46,766 nt of DNA, taken from a virus (lineage: Duplodnaviria; Heunggongvirae; Uroviricota; Caudoviricetes). Each line of letters starts with the position of its first letter. The stretch's first letter is position 1. The notes under the pieces are model-generated. The model was given only the letters and a program-made list of their open reading frames with translations, was not told the DNA's origin and made no database searches. Positions 1,009-46,766 of this stretch are shown here, one piece after another. A program made the position numbers and the translations under genes. The DNA is taken from the IMG/VR virus record IMGVR_UViG_2877958089_000004; one strand, 5' to 3'.

Positions 1009-1083
1009 GTCCTCTTAGTTAAATGGATATAACGAGCCCCTCCTAAGGGCTAATTGCAGGTTCGATTCCTGCAGGGGACACCA
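1009..1083 (+). tRNA. argW: tRNA-Arg (anticodon CCU)
   Basis: 75-nt sequence GTCCTCTTAGTTAAATGG...GGGGACACCA; D-arm, anticodon loop CCCCTCCTAAGGG with CCT anticodon, T-arm GGTTCGATTCC and 3' CCA are all readable. Confidence 0.9.
1069..1083. repeat. attL core: 15-bp direct repeat CTGCAGGGGACACCA (tRNA 3' end)
   Basis: Exact 15-bp copy recurs at 45062-45076, downstream of the torI-like gene. Confidence 0.8.
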
Positions 1084-1244
1084 TTTATCAGTTCGCTCCC
1101 ATCCGTACCAGTCCGCAAAATCCCCTGAATATCAAGCCTTCCGTAGATTAACAGTTCGTAATGGTTCGCGTCAGATCGTTGACAGCCGCACTGCATGACG
1201 GGTAAAAAGTGGATAAAATAATTTTACCCACCGGATTTTTACCC

Positions 1245-2402
1245 ATGCTCACCGTTAAGCAGATTGAAGCAGCAAAGCCGAAAGAAAAACCATACCGCCT
1301 TCTCGATGGTAATGGCCTGTACCTTTATGTCCCTGTATCAGGGAAAAAGGTATGGCAGCTTCGCTACAAGATTGACGGTAAGGAGAAAATCCTGACCGTA
1401 GGAAAATATCCGCTAATGACTTTGCAGGAGGCAAGAGATAAAGCATGGACCGCGAGGAAAGACATCTCGGTTGGCATCGATCCGGTAAAAGCGAAAAAGG
1501 CTTCGTCTAACAACAATTCCTTTAGTGCCATTTACAAGGAATGGTACGAGCACAAGAAGCAAGTCTGGTCAGTAGGCTATGCAACTGAACTTGCCAAAAT
1601 GTTTGATGACGACATTTTACCCATCATCGGCGGTCTTGAGATTCAGGATATTGAGCCGATGCAACTGCTGGAAGTAATCCGCAGATTTGAAGATCGCGGT
1701 GCAATGGAGCGAGCCAACAAAGCCCGCAGAAGATGCGGCGAGGTTTTCCGTTACGCCATTGTCACTGGTAGGGCTAAATATAACCCGGCACCTGACCTTG
1801 CTGACGCCATGAAGGGATACCGCAAGAAAAACTTCCCGTTTCTTCCTGCAGACCAGATCCCGGCATTTAACAAAGCACTGGCAACATTTTCAGGAAGCAT
1901 CGTATCGCTCATTGCGACCAAAGTTTTACGCTACACAGCCCTAAGAACGAAAGAGCTTCGTTCCATGCAATGGAAGAACGTCGATTTTGAAAACAGGATT
2001 ATCACTATCGACGCCAGTGTGATGAAGGGACGCAAGATTCATGTTGTCCCGATGTCGGACCAGGTGGTTGAACTTCTCACTACGCTAAGCTCAATCACCA
2101 AACCAGTATCAGAGTTTGTTTTTGCCGGGCGTAACGATAAGAAGAAGCCAATCTGCGAGAACGCGGTATTGCTTGTGATCAAACAAATCGGCTATGAGGG
2201 TCTGGAAAGCGGTCACGGATTCAGGCACGAATTCAGCACGATTATGAACGAGCACGAATGGCCTGCTGATGCTATTGAAGTGCAACTGGCACATGCCAAC
2301 GGCGGATCTGTGCGCGGGATTTACAACCATGCTCAGTATCTCGATAAACGCAGAGAAATGATGCAATGGTGGGCGGACTGGCTTGATGAAAAGCCTGAGT
2401 GA
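1245..2402 (+). CDS. intS: Tyrosine integrase, IntS/P4-like family
   Basis: 385-aa product from MLTVKQIEAAKPKEK...; recognised as the E. coli KplE1/CPS-53 IntS; an in-frame ATG at 1209 is an alternative start. Confidence 0.9.
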   Translation: MLTVKQIEAAKPKEKPYRLLDGNGLYLYVPVSGKKVWQLRYKIDGKEKILTVGKYPLMTLQEARDKAWTARKDISVGIDPVKAKKASSNNNSFSAIYKEWYEHKKQVWSVGYATELAKMFDDDILPIIGGLEIQDIEPMQLLEVIRRFEDRGAMERANKARRRCGEVFRYAIVTGRAKYNPAPDLADAMKGYRKKNFPFLPADQIPAFNKALATFSGSIVSLIATKVLRYTALRTKELRSMQWKNVDFENRIITIDASVMKGRKIHVVPMSDQVVELLTTLSSITKPVSEFVFAGRNDKKKPICENAVLLVIKQIGYEGLESGHGFRHEFSTIMNEHEWPADAIEVQLAHANGGSVRGIYNHAQYLDKRREMMQWWADWLDEKPE

Positions 2403-2553: not shown

Positions 2554-2916
2554 ATGTTAAAGCTATTTGCAAAGTACACCTCGATTGGTGTGCTGAACAC
2601 ACTTATACACTGGGTGGTTTTTGGTGTATGTATCTATGCCGCGCATACCAATCAGGCTCTGGCAAACTTCGCAGGTTTTGTTGTGGCTGTGAGTTTTAGC
2701 TTCTTCGCGAATGCAAAATTCACATTCAAAGCATCGACTACAACGATGCGCTACATGTTATATGTCGGGTTCATGGGAACACTGAGTGCAACTATTGGAT
2801 GGGCTGCTGATAGATGTTCACTTCCTCCAATTGTCACTCTCGTCACCTTCTCCGCCATCAGCCTGGTGTGCGGTTTCGTCTATTCAAAGTTCATTGTCTT
2901 TAGGGATGCGAAATGA
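2554..2916 (+). CDS. gtrA: GtrA-family bactoprenol-linked glucose translocase (flippase)
   Basis: 120-aa small 4-TM protein, first gene of a three-gene gtr operon next to the integrase. Confidence 0.85.
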
Positions 2917-3830
2917 AGATATCTCTTGTAGTTCCTGTCTTCAATGAAGAAGAAGCGATACCAATTTTTTATAAAACGGTACGTGAATTCGAAGAGTTGA
3001 AGCCATATGAAGTGGAAATTGTTTTCATAAATGATGGAAGCAAAGACGCTACGGAGTCAATTATTAATGCTATGGCTGTTTCAGATCCCCTAGTTGTTCC
3101 GCTGTCATTTACGCGCAACTTTGGTAAAGAACCAGCATTGTTTGCAGGGTTAGACCATGCAACTGGCGATGCCGTGATTCCAATTGATGTTGACCTGCAA
3201 GACCCGATTGAGGTCATTCCTCATCTTATTGAAAAGTGGCAGGCAGGTGCTGATATGGTGCTGGCAAAGCGTTCAGACCGCTCTACAGATGGACGTCTAA
3301 AGCGAAAAACTGCTGAGTGGTTCTATAAGCTCCACAATAAAATAAGCAACCCAACGATTGAAGAGAATGTTGGTGATTTCCGGTTAATGAGCCGTGAGGT
3401 TGTCGAAAATATCAAGCTTATGCCAGAGCGCAACCTTTTTATGAAAGGGGTACTGAGTTGGGTAGGAGGATCGACCGACATCGTCGAATATTCCCGCGCA
3501 GAACGTGTTGCTGGTAATTCAAAATTCAATGGATGGAAATTGTGGAATCTTGCGCTCGAAGGGATTACAAGCTTCTCAACATTTCCCCTGCGCATATGGA
3601 CTTATATCGGGTTAGTGGTAGCTGTCCTAGCATTTCTGTATGGCGCATGGATGATATTTGACACGCTCGCATTTGGAAATGCTGTACGAGGATACCCTTC
3701 ACTGCTGGTGTCCATTCTGTTTCTTGGAGGAATACAACTAATCGGTATAGGCGTGCTCGGAGAGTATATAGGACGTATCTACATTGAAACAAAATCAAGA
3801 CCTAAATATATTTTGAAGGCCAGAAAATGA
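2913..3830 (+). CDS. gtrB: GtrB bactoprenol glucosyltransferase (family 2 glycosyltransferase)
   Basis: 305 aa; N-terminal GT2 domain (VVPVFNEEE...DGSKD...DVDLQDP) with C-terminal TM segments; start overlaps the gtrA stop. Confidence 0.9.
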
Positions 3831-44320: not shown

Positions 44321-44665
44321 ATGTCAGATTTGGCTATGAAGGTTTTGAAATGGCAATCGACTGGCGATGTTGGCATCAGTAGCGCAACTCTTGCCTCAAT
44401 CGCATGTGGACTGAAAAAGAATATCTATGGTCATAGCTTCGGTGCTCCACATGACGCAGCCGATTTCCGACGATGCGTTGCGCTTGTCGAGCAGATTCCA
44501 GAAATCAGGGATTCATTCGACAAGGTTGCAAAGCGCGTTCCGGCATTCAAAGGAATCCTCAACGAATGGGATTCACTCGTTGCTCTGTTGAAGTCTGAAA
44601 TGAAGACGTACGGGAACAAAGCACCAGAGACTTACAGAAGAATCAGCGAGCTACGCAAGGACTAA
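44321..44665 (+). CDS. Hypothetical protein
   Basis: 114-aa ORF from MSDLAMKVLKWQSTG... Confidence 0.45.
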   Translation: MSDLAMKVLKWQSTGDVGISSATLASIACGLKKNIYGHSFGAPHDAADFRRCVALVEQIPEIRDSFDKVAKRVPAFKGILNEWDSLVALLKSEMKTYGNKAPETYRRISELRKD

Positions 44666-44720
44666 CCCGCCTCACACTCGATGAGGCATTTTCATTTATC
44701 AAGATATCCAGACCTACCAT

Positions 44721-44748
44721 CGCCGCATCAATGCGGTTTTTTTATTGC
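44721..44748 (+). terminator. Intrinsic terminator upstream of the torI-like gene
   Basis: CGCCGCATCAATGCGG hairpin followed by TTTTTTTATT. Confidence 0.55.
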
Positions 44749-44753
44749 CTGAT

Positions 44754-44769
44754 TTGCAGGTTCGATTCC
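44754..44769. repeat. 16-bp copy of the argW T-arm (TTGCAGGTTCGATTCC) upstream of the torI-like gene
   Basis: Exact match to tRNA positions 1054-1069; together with the attR core it makes up the tRNA 3' half, split by ~290 bp that contain the torI-like gene. Confidence 0.7.
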
Positions 44770-44788
44770 ATATTCGGAGATAGCACTC

Positions 44789-44989
44789 ATGCAACACGAA
44801 CTACAACCTGATTCACTGGTTGATTTGAAATTCATCATGGCTGATACTGGCTTCGGTAAAACCTTCATCTATGACCGGATTAAGTCCGGCGACCTGCCTA
44901 AAGCCAAAGTTATCCACGGACGAGCAAGATGGTTATATCGTGACCATTGTGAATTCAAAAATAAGCTCTTAAGCCGCGCCAATGGGTAA
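44789..44989 (+). CDS. torI: Excisionase / recombination directionality factor (TorI-like)
   Basis: 66 aa, MQHELQPDSLVDLKFIMADTGFGKTFIYDRIKSGDLPKAKVIHGRARWLYRD…; recognised as KplE1 TorI; last prophage gene before attR. Confidence 0.85.
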   Translation: MQHELQPDSLVDLKFIMADTGFGKTFIYDRIKSGDLPKAKVIHGRARWLYRDHCEFKNKLLSRANG

Positions 44990-45061
44990 AATAGCGGGTA
45001 AAATATTTCTCACATCTCAAAAACACCATTCCAATCAATCCCCTGCTGCCTCAAGTAGATG

Positions 45062-45076
45062 TCTGCAGGGGACACC
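45062..45076. repeat. attR core: 15-bp direct repeat CTGCAGGGGACACCA
   Basis: Identical to the 3' end of argW (1069-1083). Confidence 0.8.
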
Positions 45077-45518
45077 AGATACCCTTCAAACGAAATCTAC
45101 CTTCACCCCGTAAAAGATGGGTTTGGCAGCACACTTGCCTTATATCTACTCATTTTTACTGCAACAGGTTGAAATCTCAGCACTGTCAGAAAGCGCTGAT
45201 GACTAAACAGCCCTGAGCCGGGCGATGTAACCATCACACAGAATCCTGATAGCGAAATATGGCGTGACTCGATACTTCACTCCGCAATGCATTCCTTGAT
45301 GAATTCGCAGGACCGTGATACACGGGACAGGTCACTGAATGACGACAATGTCCTGGAAATCAGCGAACCGCGCATCTGAAGTACATTTGAGCGACTGTAC
45401 CAGAACATGAATGAGGCGTTTGGATTAGGCGATTATTAGCAGGGCTAAGCATTTTACTATTATTATTTTCCGGTTGAGGGATATAGAGCTATCGACAACA
45501 ACCGGAAAAAGTTTACGT

Positions 45519-46766
45519 CTATATTGCTGAAGGTACAGGCGTTTCCATAACTATTTGCTCGCGTTTTTTACTCAAGAAGAAAATGCCAAATAGCAACATC
45601 AGGCAGACAATACCCGAAATTGCGAAGAAAACTGTTTGGTAGCCTGCGTGGTCAAAGAGTATCCCAGTCGGCGTTGAAAGCAGCACAATCCCAAGCGAAC
45701 TGGCAATTTGAAAACCAATCAGAAAGATCGTCGACGACAGGCGCTTATCAAAGTTTGCCACGCTGTATTTGAAGACGGATATGACACAAAGTGGAACCTC
45801 AATGGCATGTAACAACTTCACTAATGAAATAATCCAGGGGTTAACGAACAGCGCGCAGGAAAGGATACGCAACGCCATAATCACAACTCCGATAAGTAAT
45901 GCATTTTTTGGCCCTACCCGATTCACAAAGAAAGGAATAATCGCCATGCACAGCGCTTCGAGTACCACCTGGAATGAGTTGAGATAACCATACAGGCGCG
46001 TTCCTACATCGTGTGATTCGAATAAACCTGAATAAAAGACAGGAAAAAGTTGTTGATCAAAAATGTTATAGAAAGACCACGTCCCCACAATAAATATGAC
46101 GAAAACCCAGAAGTTTCGATCCTTGAAAACTGCGATAAAATCCTCTTTTTTTACCCCTCCCGCATCTGCCGCTACGCACTGGTGATCCTTATCTTTAAAA
46201 CGCATGTTGATCATCATAAATACAGCGCCAAATAGCGAGACCAACCAGAAGTTGATATGGGGACTGATACTAAAAAATATGCCGGCAAAGAACGCGCCAA
46301 TAGCATAGCCAAAAGATCCCCAGGCGCGCGCTGTTCCATATTCGAAATGAAAATTTCGCGCCATTTTTTCGGTGAAGCTATCAAGCAAACCGCATCCCGC
46401 CAGATACCCCAAGCCAAAAAATAGCGCCCCCAGAATTAGACCTACAGAAAAATTGCTTTGCAGTAACGGTTCATAAACGTAAATCATAAACGGTCCGGTC
46501 AAGACCAGGATGAAACTCATACACCAGATGAGCGGTTTCTTCAGACCGAGTTTATCCTGAACGATGCCGTAGAACATCATAAATAGAATGCTGGTAAACT
46601 GGTTGACCGAATAAAGTGTACCTAATTCCGTCCCTGTCAACCCTAGATGTCCTTTCAGCCAAATAGCGTATAACGACCACCACAGCGACCAGGAAATAAA
46701 AAAGAGAAATGAGTAACTGGATGCAAAACGATAGTACGCATTTCTGAATGGAATATTCAGTGCCAT
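45519..46766 (-). CDS. cscB: Sucrose:H+ symporter, LacY-like MFS oligosaccharide permease
   Basis: 415-aa 12-TM protein starting at the last window base; recognised as CscB of the csc sucrose cluster; downstream genes lie outside the window. Confidence 0.8.
   Translation of the reverse strand: MALNIPFRNAYYRFASSYSFLFFISWSLWWSLYAIWLKGHLGLTGTELGTLYSVNQFTSILFMMFYGIVQDKLGLKKPLIWCMSFILVLTGPFMIYVYEPLLQSNFSVGLILGALFFGLGYLAGCGLLDSFTEKMARNFHFEYGTARAWGSFGYAIGAFFAGIFFSISPHINFWLVSLFGAVFMMINMRFKDKDHQCVAADAGGVKKEDFIAVFKDRNFWVFVIFIVGTWSFYNIFDQQLFPVFYSGLFESHDVGTRLYGYLNSFQVVLEALCMAIIPFFVNRVGPKNALLIGVVIMALRILSCALFVNPWIISLVKLLHAIEVPLCVISVFKYSVANFDKRLSSTIFLIGFQIASSLGIVLLSTPTGILFDHAGYQTVFFAISGIVCLMLLFGIFFLSKKREQIVMETPVPSAI

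What the first reader, a model, noticed from the sequence alone, without database searches (positions are those of the whole stretch)
44754..45076. tRNA 3' half split into two pieces around the torI-like gene
The attR core (45062-45076) matches tRNA positions 1069-1083, and an additional exact 16-bp copy of the tRNA T-arm (positions 1054-1069) lies ~290 bp upstream, just before the torI-like gene. The two pieces are contiguous in the tRNA but separated here by the excisionase gene, suggesting an extended att site or successive integration events.
Basis: seen in the sequence. Interest (0 to 1): 0.45.

Follow-up and report, generated by a model that had tools for sequence, protein, structure and literature searches.

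The report
Conserved argW T-arm copy before torI
A 16-base copy of the host tRNA-Arg T arm just upstream of the prophage excisionase gene torI is real, but it is a conserved built-in part of the phage's own excision/integration module (probably a control site for torI), not a scar of repeated integrations.

Summary
TTGCAGGTTCGATTCC occurs exactly twice, in argW (1054-1069) and 19 nt upstream of torI (44754-44769).

The interpretation mostly fails. The 16-mer is phage DNA: free phages HK620 and Sf6, K-12 CPS-53 and 75 of 80 IMG/VR contigs carry it at the same place.

Its 13-nt kernel CAGGTTCGATTCC (tRNA positions 50-62) sits 15-24 nt before the xis start codon in 12 lineages from nine enterobacterial genera. 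Every column is at least 90% conserved, while the left flanks are about 25% identical and xis DNA is 58-82% identical.

The kernel persists in phage phiEt88, where the RDF-type and arm-type repeats have changed. It is absent where xis is fused to an upstream operon. A published 135-bp attR that lacks it still excises in vitro. Most lineages keep a second, degenerate T loop beside the core, so "one tRNA half split by torI" is peculiar to the E. coli lineage.

Best reading (inferred, about 0.4): a selected cis-element in the torI leader copying the attB left arm, bound by the IntS core-binding domain. Rivals are an RNA hairpin hiding the ribosome-binding site, a TorI operator, a cII promoter, and a relic.

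The parts
1009..1083 (+). argW, tRNA-Arg(CCT); the integration target, reconstituted at attL
   Evidence: ARAGORN; identical to the tRNA of an empty-site strain
1054..1069 (+). tRNA copy of the 16-mer: TT + T-stem 5' strand GCAGG + T loop TTCGATT + CC (tRNA positions 47-62)
1069..1083 (+). attL core CTGCAGGGGACACCA
1091..1178 (+). five TorI-type boxes on the P' arm: GTTCG at 1091, GTCCG at 1111, GTTCG at 1154, GTTCG at 1164, GATCG at 1174
   Evidence: Positions. The motif identities GTTCG/GTCCG/GATCG are those mutated as sites I1-I5 by Panis et al. 2010 (PMC2951348).
1179..1244 (+). PintS -35 hexamer (TTGACA, 1179-1184) and IntS arm-type P' sites (GGGTAAAA 1200-1207, GGATAAAA 1211-1218, TTTTACCC 1222-1229 and 1237-1244)
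   Evidence: PMC2951348 for TTGACA and for the TAAA motif in the P' sites
1245..2402 (+). intS, a P4-family tyrosine integrase, 99-100% identical to the integrases of CUS-3, Sf6 and Dewey
   Evidence: the start codon is taken at the position of the HK620 int start
44722..44745 (+). intrinsic terminator hairpin plus T run; this is the mosaic boundary of the recombination module
   Evidence: Sequence left of it differs among the 80 IMG/VR loci, while sequence right of it is conserved.
44754..44769 (+). the finding: a phage-borne 16-nt copy of the argW T arm. The conserved kernel is 44757-44769, CAGGTTCGATTCC.
44776..44779 (+). torI Shine-Dalgarno GGAG, 6 nt after the kernel
44789..44989 (+). torI (hkaC / Sf6 gene 18), the 66-aa recombination directionality factor
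   Evidence: 100% identical to the phage copies
44984..45005 (+). two IntS arm-type sites of the P arm, GGGTAAAATA twice
   Evidence: annotated as an attP repeat in HK620
45039..45046 (+). TCCCCTGC, the left arm of a conserved dyad; it is the reverse complement of 45065-45072 inside the core
   Evidence: compensatory changes in three lineages
45063..45077 (+). attR core CTGCAGGGGACACCA (annotated as the pseudogene pawZ in K-12)

Best explanation
The 16-mer is the E. coli-lineage form of a 13-bp element, CAGGTTCGATTCC. This element belongs to the phage's own xis(torI)-attP-int recombination module, the KplE1/HK620/Sf6 type that targets argW. It lies between the terminator that bounds the module and the torI ribosome-binding site.

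Shown here: the element is carried by free phages, it is under purifying selection, and it is a copy of tRNA positions 50-62, the bases immediately 5' of the attP/attB identity block.

Inferred: it is a cis-regulatory site that controls expression of the excisionase, which is the step that decides excision in this module. It most likely works as a decoy or operator copy of the attB left arm, bound by the core-binding/catalytic part of IntS. IntS is made constitutively in lysogens, and it could be helped by the two IntS arm sites just downstream of torI. Such binding would damp torI expression until strong read-through transcription arrives.

The element is not part of the crossover site and is not a scar of an earlier integration.
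For: 1. Phage-borne. The same sequence sits upstream of hkaC in HK620 and of gene 18 in Sf6, in K-12 CPS-53 and in 75 of 80 IMG/VR loci. The homology boundary is at the terminator.

2. Selection. In 12 lineages (E. coli, Atlantibacter, Citrobacter, Serratia, two Pantoea, Edwardsiella, Hafnia, Cedecea, Salmonella phage g341c, Erwinia phages Midgardsormr38 and phiEt88) each of the 13 positions is at least 90% conserved. The 30-nt left flank is only 13-33% identical to the window in nine of the eleven other lineages, and xis DNA is 58-82% identical. The kernel ends 15-18 nt before the ATG in 11 of 12 lineages.

3. Link to xis control. The kernel is present when xis has its own upstream intergenic region. 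It is absent when xis overlaps or abuts an upstream gene, as in Klebsiella, Rahnella, Cronobacter and Mixta and in phages Chronis and EhrS_49.

4. It tracks attB specificity, not RDF or arm specificity. In phiEt88 the P' arm has no GTTCG repeats (it has CGATGTAAC/GCGTTAC instead) and the arm sites are GGGCATAA. The kernel and the argW core are nevertheless kept.

5. Boundary coincidence. The kernel ends at tRNA position 62. In most lineages attP matches the tRNA only from position 63 onward (GT(A/T)|TGCAGGGG). In the E. coli lineage attP also shows the dyad GATGTC|TGCAGGG|GACACC with a 7-bp spacer (read directly).

6. Literature. IntS is constitutively expressed and autoregulated, the torI promoter is described as 'non-characterized', and excision control is said to rest on RDF expression (PMC2951348).
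Against: There are no binding data. IntS binding to this element was not tested and cannot be tested with these tools.

The overlap (cleavage) region of this att site was not available to me. If the crossover lies further 3' (for example in ACACCA), the left arm would be CTGCAGGG and the kernel would not be a half-site copy.

The attP C site itself (TTCGATGT) shares only TTCGAT with the kernel.

Isolated core-type half-sites usually bind integrases weakly.

The near-fixed distance to the Shine-Dalgarno sequence, together with a recurrent predicted fold in which AUUCC pairs with GGAG and GGUU pairs with AACC, fits an RNA-level role at least as naturally.

Every module found targets argW. Covariation with a different tRNA, the decisive comparative test, was therefore impossible.
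Confidence: 0.4

Rival explanations
1. The element acts at the RNA level. In transcripts that read through the terminator, the kernel pairs with the torI translation-initiation region (AUUCC with GGAG(A)U, GGUU with the AACC just before the AUG) and hides the ribosome-binding site. The identity to the T arm would then be incidental or historical.
For: The two-helix fold, or the UUCC:GGAG pairing alone, is predicted in most of the 13 leaders folded, with the SD G residues paired at probability above 0.9 in 11 of 13. RNAalifold recovers the UUCC:GGAG helix. The spacing between kernel and SD is nearly constant. Citrobacter has an extra U that turns a bulge into a U-G pair.
Against: Energies are weak. 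The z-score is about 0 in the E. coli lineage and at best about -2.7. The alifold energy is -1.1 kcal/mol with no compensatory pairs. The internal-loop bases C, G, A and the 5' CA are as invariant as the paired bases, which a hairpin does not explain. It is not known whether the kernel is transcribed from a torI-proximal promoter.
Confidence: 0.2
2. The element is a neutral or nearly neutral relic. An ancestral attP carried a longer stretch of the tRNA 3' half, and xis plus the P arm came to lie inside it.
For: The two pieces abut exactly in the tRNA. attP sites commonly carry tRNA 3' segments. The element does appear to be tRNA-derived.
Against: The kernel is better conserved than the xis coding sequence, while its flanks are randomised. 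Most lineages have a second T-loop remnant next to the core, which indicates duplication rather than a split. The extra TTG that extends the match to 16 nt occurs only in the E. coli lineage.
Confidence: 0.12
3. The element is a TorI operator. The kernel contains GTTCG, the core of the TorI sites on attL, so TorI would autoregulate its own gene.
For: GTTCG/GTCCG/GATCG are the TorI box cores (PMC2951348). GGTTCG is identical to site I4. TorI is known to repress PintS.
Against: phiEt88 keeps the kernel although the P'-arm repeats at the positions of its RDF sites have changed to GTAAC/GTTAC types. The conserved ATTCC 3' of GTTCG has no counterpart in sites I1-I5. The box is single rather than part of a phased array.
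Confidence: 0.1
4. The element is part of a cII-activated pI-type promoter for xis-int transcription, as annotated in the HK620 and Sf6 records.
For: GenBank features give 'promoter, phage integration' and a 'cII protein' binding site at L001 1522-1560 and 1523-1535, and pI in Sf6. The 16-mer begins with the second TTGC.
Against: The repeat is TTGC-N5-TTGC (44745 and 44754), not the canonical N6 known from lambda. The first TTGC is TTAC in K-12 and in 18 of 80 IMG/VR loci. Neither TTGC is conserved outside the E. coli and Atlantibacter/Citrobacter lineages, whereas the kernel is. No sigma-70 consensus promoter is found. The module also occurs in Erwinia phages classified in genera other than Lederbergvirus.
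Confidence: 0.05
5. The element is a scar of successive or tandem integrations at argW in this host, or a chance match.
For: None beyond the resemblance itself.
Against: The element is present in free phage genomes and at a fixed position in many genera. The chance expectation is 0.04.
Confidence: 0.02

Closest known systems
KplE1 (CPS-53) / HK620 / Sf6 / CUS-3 recombination module at argW (Panis et al. 2007, 2010, 2012)
   Same: Same tRNA target and core. IntS is 99-100% identical and TorI 100% identical. The TorI boxes, the IntS arm sites and the order xis-attP-int are the same. K-12 itself carries the same 16-mer upstream of torI.
   Different: Nothing differs in the module itself. What is added here is that the leader of torI contains a conserved copy of the argW T arm. 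I found no mention of this in the papers I could search.
Promoter/att overlap regulation (PintS repressed by IntS and TorI at attL; RDF and Int as transcription regulators)
   Same: Recombination-protein sites double as operators, and the proposed role of the kernel follows the same logic (PMC2951348).
   Different: The kernel lies about 300 bp from the crossover and outside the functional 135-bp attR. It resembles a core-type (attB) arm rather than an arm-type or RDF site, and no binding has been shown.
Lambda pI / cII-dependent promoters
   Same: The position upstream of the recombination genes, the TTGC repeats, and the annotation as such in HK620 and Sf6.
   Different: The spacing is N5 rather than N6. 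The repeats are variable, there is no -10 consensus, and the repeats are not conserved across lineages.
attR pseudo-tRNA fragments such as pawZ
   Same: Both are short exact copies of the argW 3' region inside or at the edge of the prophage.
   Different: pawZ is the duplicated crossover core at the junction. The 16-mer is internal, is not duplicated by integration, and covers the part of the tRNA that integration does not replace.

Membership tests
KplE1/HK620/Sf6-type argW recombination module | Integration into the 3' end of argW with the core CTGCAGGGGACACCA(T) duplicated at both ends | tested here: met
   core sequence as given in PMC2951348
KplE1/HK620/Sf6-type argW recombination module | IntS-type integrase next to attL and transcribed away from the tRNA; TorI RDF next to attR; attP between xis and int in the free phage | tested here: met
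KplE1/HK620/Sf6-type argW recombination module | Five TorI boxes (GTTCG/GTCCG/GATCG) and TAAA-containing IntS arm sites on attL; arm sites on attR | tested here: met
   compared with PMC2951348
att crossover core / required part of attR | Lies at the prophage-host junction and is duplicated by integration | tested here: not met
   The 16-mer ends 293 nt before the junction core and is already present in free phage DNA.
att crossover core / required part of attR | Needed for excisive recombination | tested here: not met
   The published 135-bp attR substrate starts at window 44966 and recombines in vitro (PMC3509656; position). This rests on the literature, not on an experiment done here.
cII-dependent promoter (pI/pRE type) | TTGC-N6-TTGC flanking a -35 region, with a -10 hexamer at the proper distance | tested here: not met
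   The spacing is N5. TTAC variants occur. No consensus promoter is found.
TorI (RDF) binding site | GTTCG-type box | tested here: met
   GGTTCG lies within the kernel.
TorI (RDF) binding site | Changes together with the RDF boxes of the same module | tested here: not met
   phiEt88 has different P'-arm repeats but an unchanged kernel.
Tyrosine-recombinase core-type half-site (attB left arm) | Sequence equal to the bases of attB that abut the overlap region | tested here: inconclusive
   The kernel equals tRNA positions 50-62 and ends where attP/attB identity begins. The cleavage sites themselves are not known to me.
Tyrosine-recombinase core-type half-site (attB left arm) | Bound by the integrase core-binding/catalytic domains | not testable with these tools
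   Needs a gel shift or footprint with IntS.
tRNA gene or tRNA-like RNA | Detected as a tRNA or tRNA-like structure | tested here: not met
   ARAGORN finds only argW. Rfam gives no tRNA-type hit in 44500-45300 even at E up to 10. No conserved T-stem pairing follows the kernel.

The most novel reading that the evidence does not exclude
The argW-specific xis-attP-int module uses mimicry of its own target tRNA as a regulatory device. A perfect copy of the attB left arm sits in front of the excisionase gene and is read by the integrase, coupling integrase occupancy to RDF expression and hence to the decision to excise. Together with the covarying inverted copy of the core in the P arm, which in one Erwinia phage forms a 12-bp acceptor/T-arm minihelix look-alike ending in CACCA, this would mean that tRNA-derived sequence in attP does more than provide the crossover site.
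Probability: 0.25. Interest if true: 0.55.

Novelty: new variant of a known kind. Interest (0 to 1): 0.38.

Why it matters
In this very common module the integrase is made constitutively, so excision is decided by expression of the RDF gene. A match to the torI region is present in 3074 of 5426 complete E. coli genomes. The authors who characterised the system describe the torI promoter as non-characterized and state that understanding excision control requires study of RDF expression (PMC2951348). A 13-bp element that is better conserved than torI itself, and that sits immediately before its ribosome-binding site, is a concrete and cheap-to-test candidate for that missing control site. It is present in K-12, where all the tools exist. 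For genome annotation, the result also shows that a tRNA fragment inside a prophage end need not mark an old junction.

Tried and rejected
1. Chance was rejected by shuffles.

2. An integration scar in this host was rejected by the free-phage genomes and the cross-genus conservation.

3. The cII site / pI promoter annotation was checked and found weak: N5 spacing, TTAC variants, no consensus promoter, and no conservation across lineages.

4. A longer degenerate tRNA copy around the 16-mer was looked for. Identity stops on both sides (reading and of the alignment), and neither Rfam nor ARAGORN gives a hit.

5. A split-tRNA RNA bridging torI was considered. Only about 3-4 long-range pairs are possible and the acceptor 5' strand is missing, so it was rejected.

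6. A conserved T-arm hairpin at the kernel was considered. The bases after the kernel vary and do not keep the stem.

7. A covariation test with modules that target other tRNAs was attempted. All TorI relatives found, down to 36% identity, still target argW. The distant IntS homologues examined (38% identity or less) have other gene orders, so the test could not be done. The second IMG/VR scan, made with an alignment, again returned only loci with an identical TorI.

8. The Panis 2007 (JBC) and Menouni 2013 (PNAS) papers could not be read. A full-text search for the 16-mer found nothing.

Full report
**Setting.** The window is an E. coli chromosomal segment. It runs yfdC (1-933), then argW (tRNA-Arg CCT, 1009-1083), then a prophage of about 44 kb, then host DNA with an oligosaccharide MFS transporter gene (45519-46766, minus strand).

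The prophage is P22-like, with about 95-97% identity in blocks to Sf101, CUS-3, phiv205-1, Kapi1, HZ41 and HF4s. Its left end carries intS (1245-2402) followed by gtrA/gtrB-like ORFs. Its right end carries torI (44789-44989).

An empty argW site in strain XH990 gives attB = tRNA...CTGCAGGGGACACCA|GATACCC. It shows that exactly 15 bp are duplicated at the two prophage ends.

**Check of the observation.** TTGCAGGTTCGATTCC occurs at 1054-1069 and at 44754-44769 and nowhere else, even with 2 mismatches allowed. The chance expectation is 0.04.

In tRNA terms the 16-mer is TT + GCAGG (T-stem 5' strand) + TTCGATT (T loop) + CC. The core continues from that last C to the CCA end. The two pieces are therefore contiguous in the tRNA, and in the prophage they are 293 nt apart with torI in between.

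**The 16-mer is phage DNA.** The stretch from the terminator at 44722 to the end of the core is 95-97% identical to free phages HK620, Sf6, Kapi1, HK633, N7 and others. In those genomes it continues directly into the P' arm and int, so the order is xis-attP-int.

K-12 CPS-53 has the same 16-mer upstream of torI, and its 15-bp core is annotated as the pseudogene pawZ. Among 80 IMG/VR contigs with an identical TorI, 75 have the 16-mer intact. The sequence conserved among them begins at the T run of the terminator, while the DNA further left falls into several unrelated types. This removes the idea of a scar left by successive integrations in this host.

**A 13-nt kernel is under selection.** I collected TorI relatives with 36-88% amino-acid identity from species-representative genomes, assemblies and phages. 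CAGGTTCGATTCC, with at most one change, ends 15-18 nt before the xis ATG in:
- E. coli, Atlantibacter, Citrobacter, two Pantoea, Edwardsiella, Hafnia and Cedecea;
- Salmonella phage g341c;
- Erwinia phages Midgardsormr38 (two tandem copies) and phiEt88.

In Serratia the distance is 24 nt. Every one of the 13 columns is at least 90% conserved. By contrast, the 30 nt to the left are 13-33% identical to the window in nine of the eleven other lineages, and xis DNA is 58-82% identical.

The TTG that extends the match to 16 nt is peculiar to the E. coli lineage.

The kernel is missing where xis overlaps or abuts an upstream gene (Klebsiella, Rahnella, Cronobacter, Mixta, phages Chronis and EhrS_49, relatives of phiEt88). 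In Dryocola it is missing although the terminator remains, so it appears to have been deleted cleanly.

A noncoding block that is better conserved than the adjacent gene, held at a near-fixed distance from the start codon, and present only when xis has its own upstream region, has the signature of a cis-acting control element.

**Not one tRNA half split in two.** In most non-E. coli lineages the bases directly left of the core read (A/G)TTCGATGT(A/T)|TGCAGGGGAC. That is a degenerate T loop followed by the identity block. The module therefore holds two T-loop copies, a perfect one before xis and a decayed one at the core. In the E. coli lineage the core-adjacent copy has decayed further, to GTAGATGT, and this creates the impression of a clean split.

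**Relation to the known att sites.** Panis et al. give the following, all taken from the papers:
- The core is CTGCAGGGGACACCAT.
- TorI binds five boxes on attL with cores GTTCG, GTCCG and GATCG.
- The IntS arm sites contain TAAA.
- The torI promoter is 'non-characterized'.
- IntS is expressed constitutively at a low level.
- Excision control rests on RDF expression (PMC2951348).

All of these sites are present in the window. Their in vitro excision assay uses a 135-bp attR whose inner primer corresponds to window 44966-44985 (PMC3509656). The 16-mer is therefore dispensable for the basic excision reaction.

**What might read the kernel.**

(a) cII. The HK620 and Sf6 records annotate this spot as a pI promoter with a cII site. 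However, the repeat is TTGC-N5-TTGC rather than the N6 known from lambda. The first TTGC is TTAC in K-12 and in 18 of 80 IMG/VR loci. The repeats are not conserved in other genera, and no sigma-70 consensus promoter is found.

(b) TorI. The kernel contains GGTTCG, the same as box I4. But in phiEt88 the P'-arm repeats at the positions of the TorI boxes have changed to CGATGTAAC/GCGTTAC types, while the kernel is unchanged. The conserved ATTCC also has no counterpart in boxes I1-I5.

(c) IntS arm-binding domain. The arm sites change from GGGTAAAA to GGGCATAA in g341c and phiEt88, and the kernel does not resemble them.

(d) IntS core-binding/catalytic domains. Of the module's DNA specificities considered here, only the attB specificity stays constant across all lineages, and the kernel is an exact copy of the attB bases 50-62. 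In most lineages attP matches the tRNA only from position 63 onward. The E. coli-lineage attP shows the dyad GATGTC|TGCAGGG|GACACC with a 7-bp spacer. Positions 50-62 are therefore plausibly the B arm abutting the overlap (inference). A 13-bp arm is of the size known for tyrosine-recombinase half-sites, such as the 13-bp repeats of Cre and FLP; this last point is from my own knowledge.

(e) RNA. In most leaders AUUCC can pair with GGAG(A)U and GGUU with the AACC just before the AUG, which would hide the ribosome-binding site. RNAalifold recovers only the UUCC:GGAG helix, at -1.1 kcal/mol and without compensatory changes. The z-scores range from about 0 to -2.7, and the unpaired kernel bases are as invariant as the paired ones.

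**Most likely mechanism.** I favour (d): a decoy or operator copy of the attB left arm in the torI leader, bound by IntS. Binding may be assisted by the two arm sites just after the torI stop codon (44984-45005), and it would limit torI expression in lysogens. Only the sequence relationships are shown here; the binding and its effect are inferred. I put this at about 0.4. The RNA model is at about 0.2, a relic with little function at about 0.12, a TorI operator at about 0.1, the cII promoter at about 0.05, and scar or chance at about 0.02. The remainder covers an unknown host factor.

The broader statement, that this is a selected, phage-borne cis element of the torI leader derived from or mimicking the argW T arm, I hold at about 0.85.

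**What could not be done.** Every TorI relative found still targets argW. The distant IntS homologues I inspected have other gene orders. Covariation with another tRNA could therefore not be tested. The IntS cleavage sites, and the 2007 JBC and 2013 PNAS papers, were not available to me.

**Novelty and interest.** The module is well known and extremely common: a match is present in 3074 of 5426 complete E. coli genomes. The specific point, a conserved argW T-arm copy in front of torI, did not turn up in the papers I could search. I rate it a new variant of a known kind, that is, recombination-protein sites used as operators or pseudo-att sites. The interest is modest, because it offers a concrete candidate for the uncharacterised control of RDF expression and is testable in K-12.

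Noticed in passing
window 45039-45046 and 45065-45072; alignment A6 of 17 lineages: TCCCCTGC in the P arm is the exact reverse complement of GCAGGGGA inside the core, 18 nt away. The dyad is conserved in 17 lineages and shows compensatory changes: Edwardsiella TCCCTGCA/TGCAGGGA, Cedecea GTTCCCTG/CAGGGAAC, Rouxiella CCCCTACA/TGTAGGGG. In Erwinia phage Midgardsormr38 it extends to a 12-bp stem with loop TGATTCGAT followed by CACCA, which looks like a tRNA acceptor/T-arm minihelix. Whether it is a protein dyad or an RNA hairpin at the 3' end of the xis mRNA is unknown.
   Followed up: partly
L003 2485-2520 (Erwinia phage Midgardsormr38): There are two tandem copies of CAGGTTCGATTCCC, 16 nt apart start to start, upstream of xis. 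All other lineages have one copy.
   Followed up: no
window 44982-45113 (HK620 hkaB / Sf6 gene 17 homologue): A 43-codon ORF annotated in the phage records starts inside the end of torI, runs across the IntS arm sites and the core, and ends in host DNA in the prophage. Its C-terminus therefore changes on integration, and it is probably not a real gene.
   Followed up: no
L090 (MAG labelled Actinomycetes) and L105 (MAG labelled Parachlamydiaceae): Short contigs in these metagenome-assembled genomes carry an enterobacterial-type torI module, including the kernel. This points to contamination or mis-binning of the MAGs.
   Followed up: no
L107 1501-3134 (Hafnia, 4.87-Mb contig) and L112 (Cedecea-type, 3.8-kb contig): xis, an attP-like junction and int are contiguous, as in a free phage. 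In the Hafnia contig this occurs within a 4.87-Mb chromosome-sized sequence, which suggests tandem prophages or an excised or circular copy merged in the assembly.
   Followed up: no
window 44660-44742: The 83 nt left of the module boundary, including a hairpin at 44669-44687, are 88-95% identical to an early-left region of HK022, HK97, mEp235 and 434. In the HK97 and phage 434 records that region is annotated as a terminator. The recombination module is therefore joined to different phage backbones at a terminator.
   Followed up: partly
window 44748-44762 and 44807-44821: CCTGATTTGCAGGTT in the leader is repeated at 80% identity as CCTGATTCACTGGTT in torI codons 7-11. It occurs only in the E. 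coli lineage and may be chance.
   Followed up: no
window 2554-3830 and 45519-46766: gtrA- and gtrB-like O-antigen modification ORFs follow intS. On the right flank, the homologous gene in the empty-site strain is annotated as an oligosaccharide MFS transporter, whereas K-12 has dsdC next to the argW att site. This fits the known variability of the argW-dsdCXA region.
   Followed up: no
L093 2900-3000 (Dryocola): The terminator and TTATTGCCTG are kept, but the sequence then jumps straight to the ribosome-binding site. This is a clean deletion of the kernel in a module that is otherwise intact.
   Followed up: no
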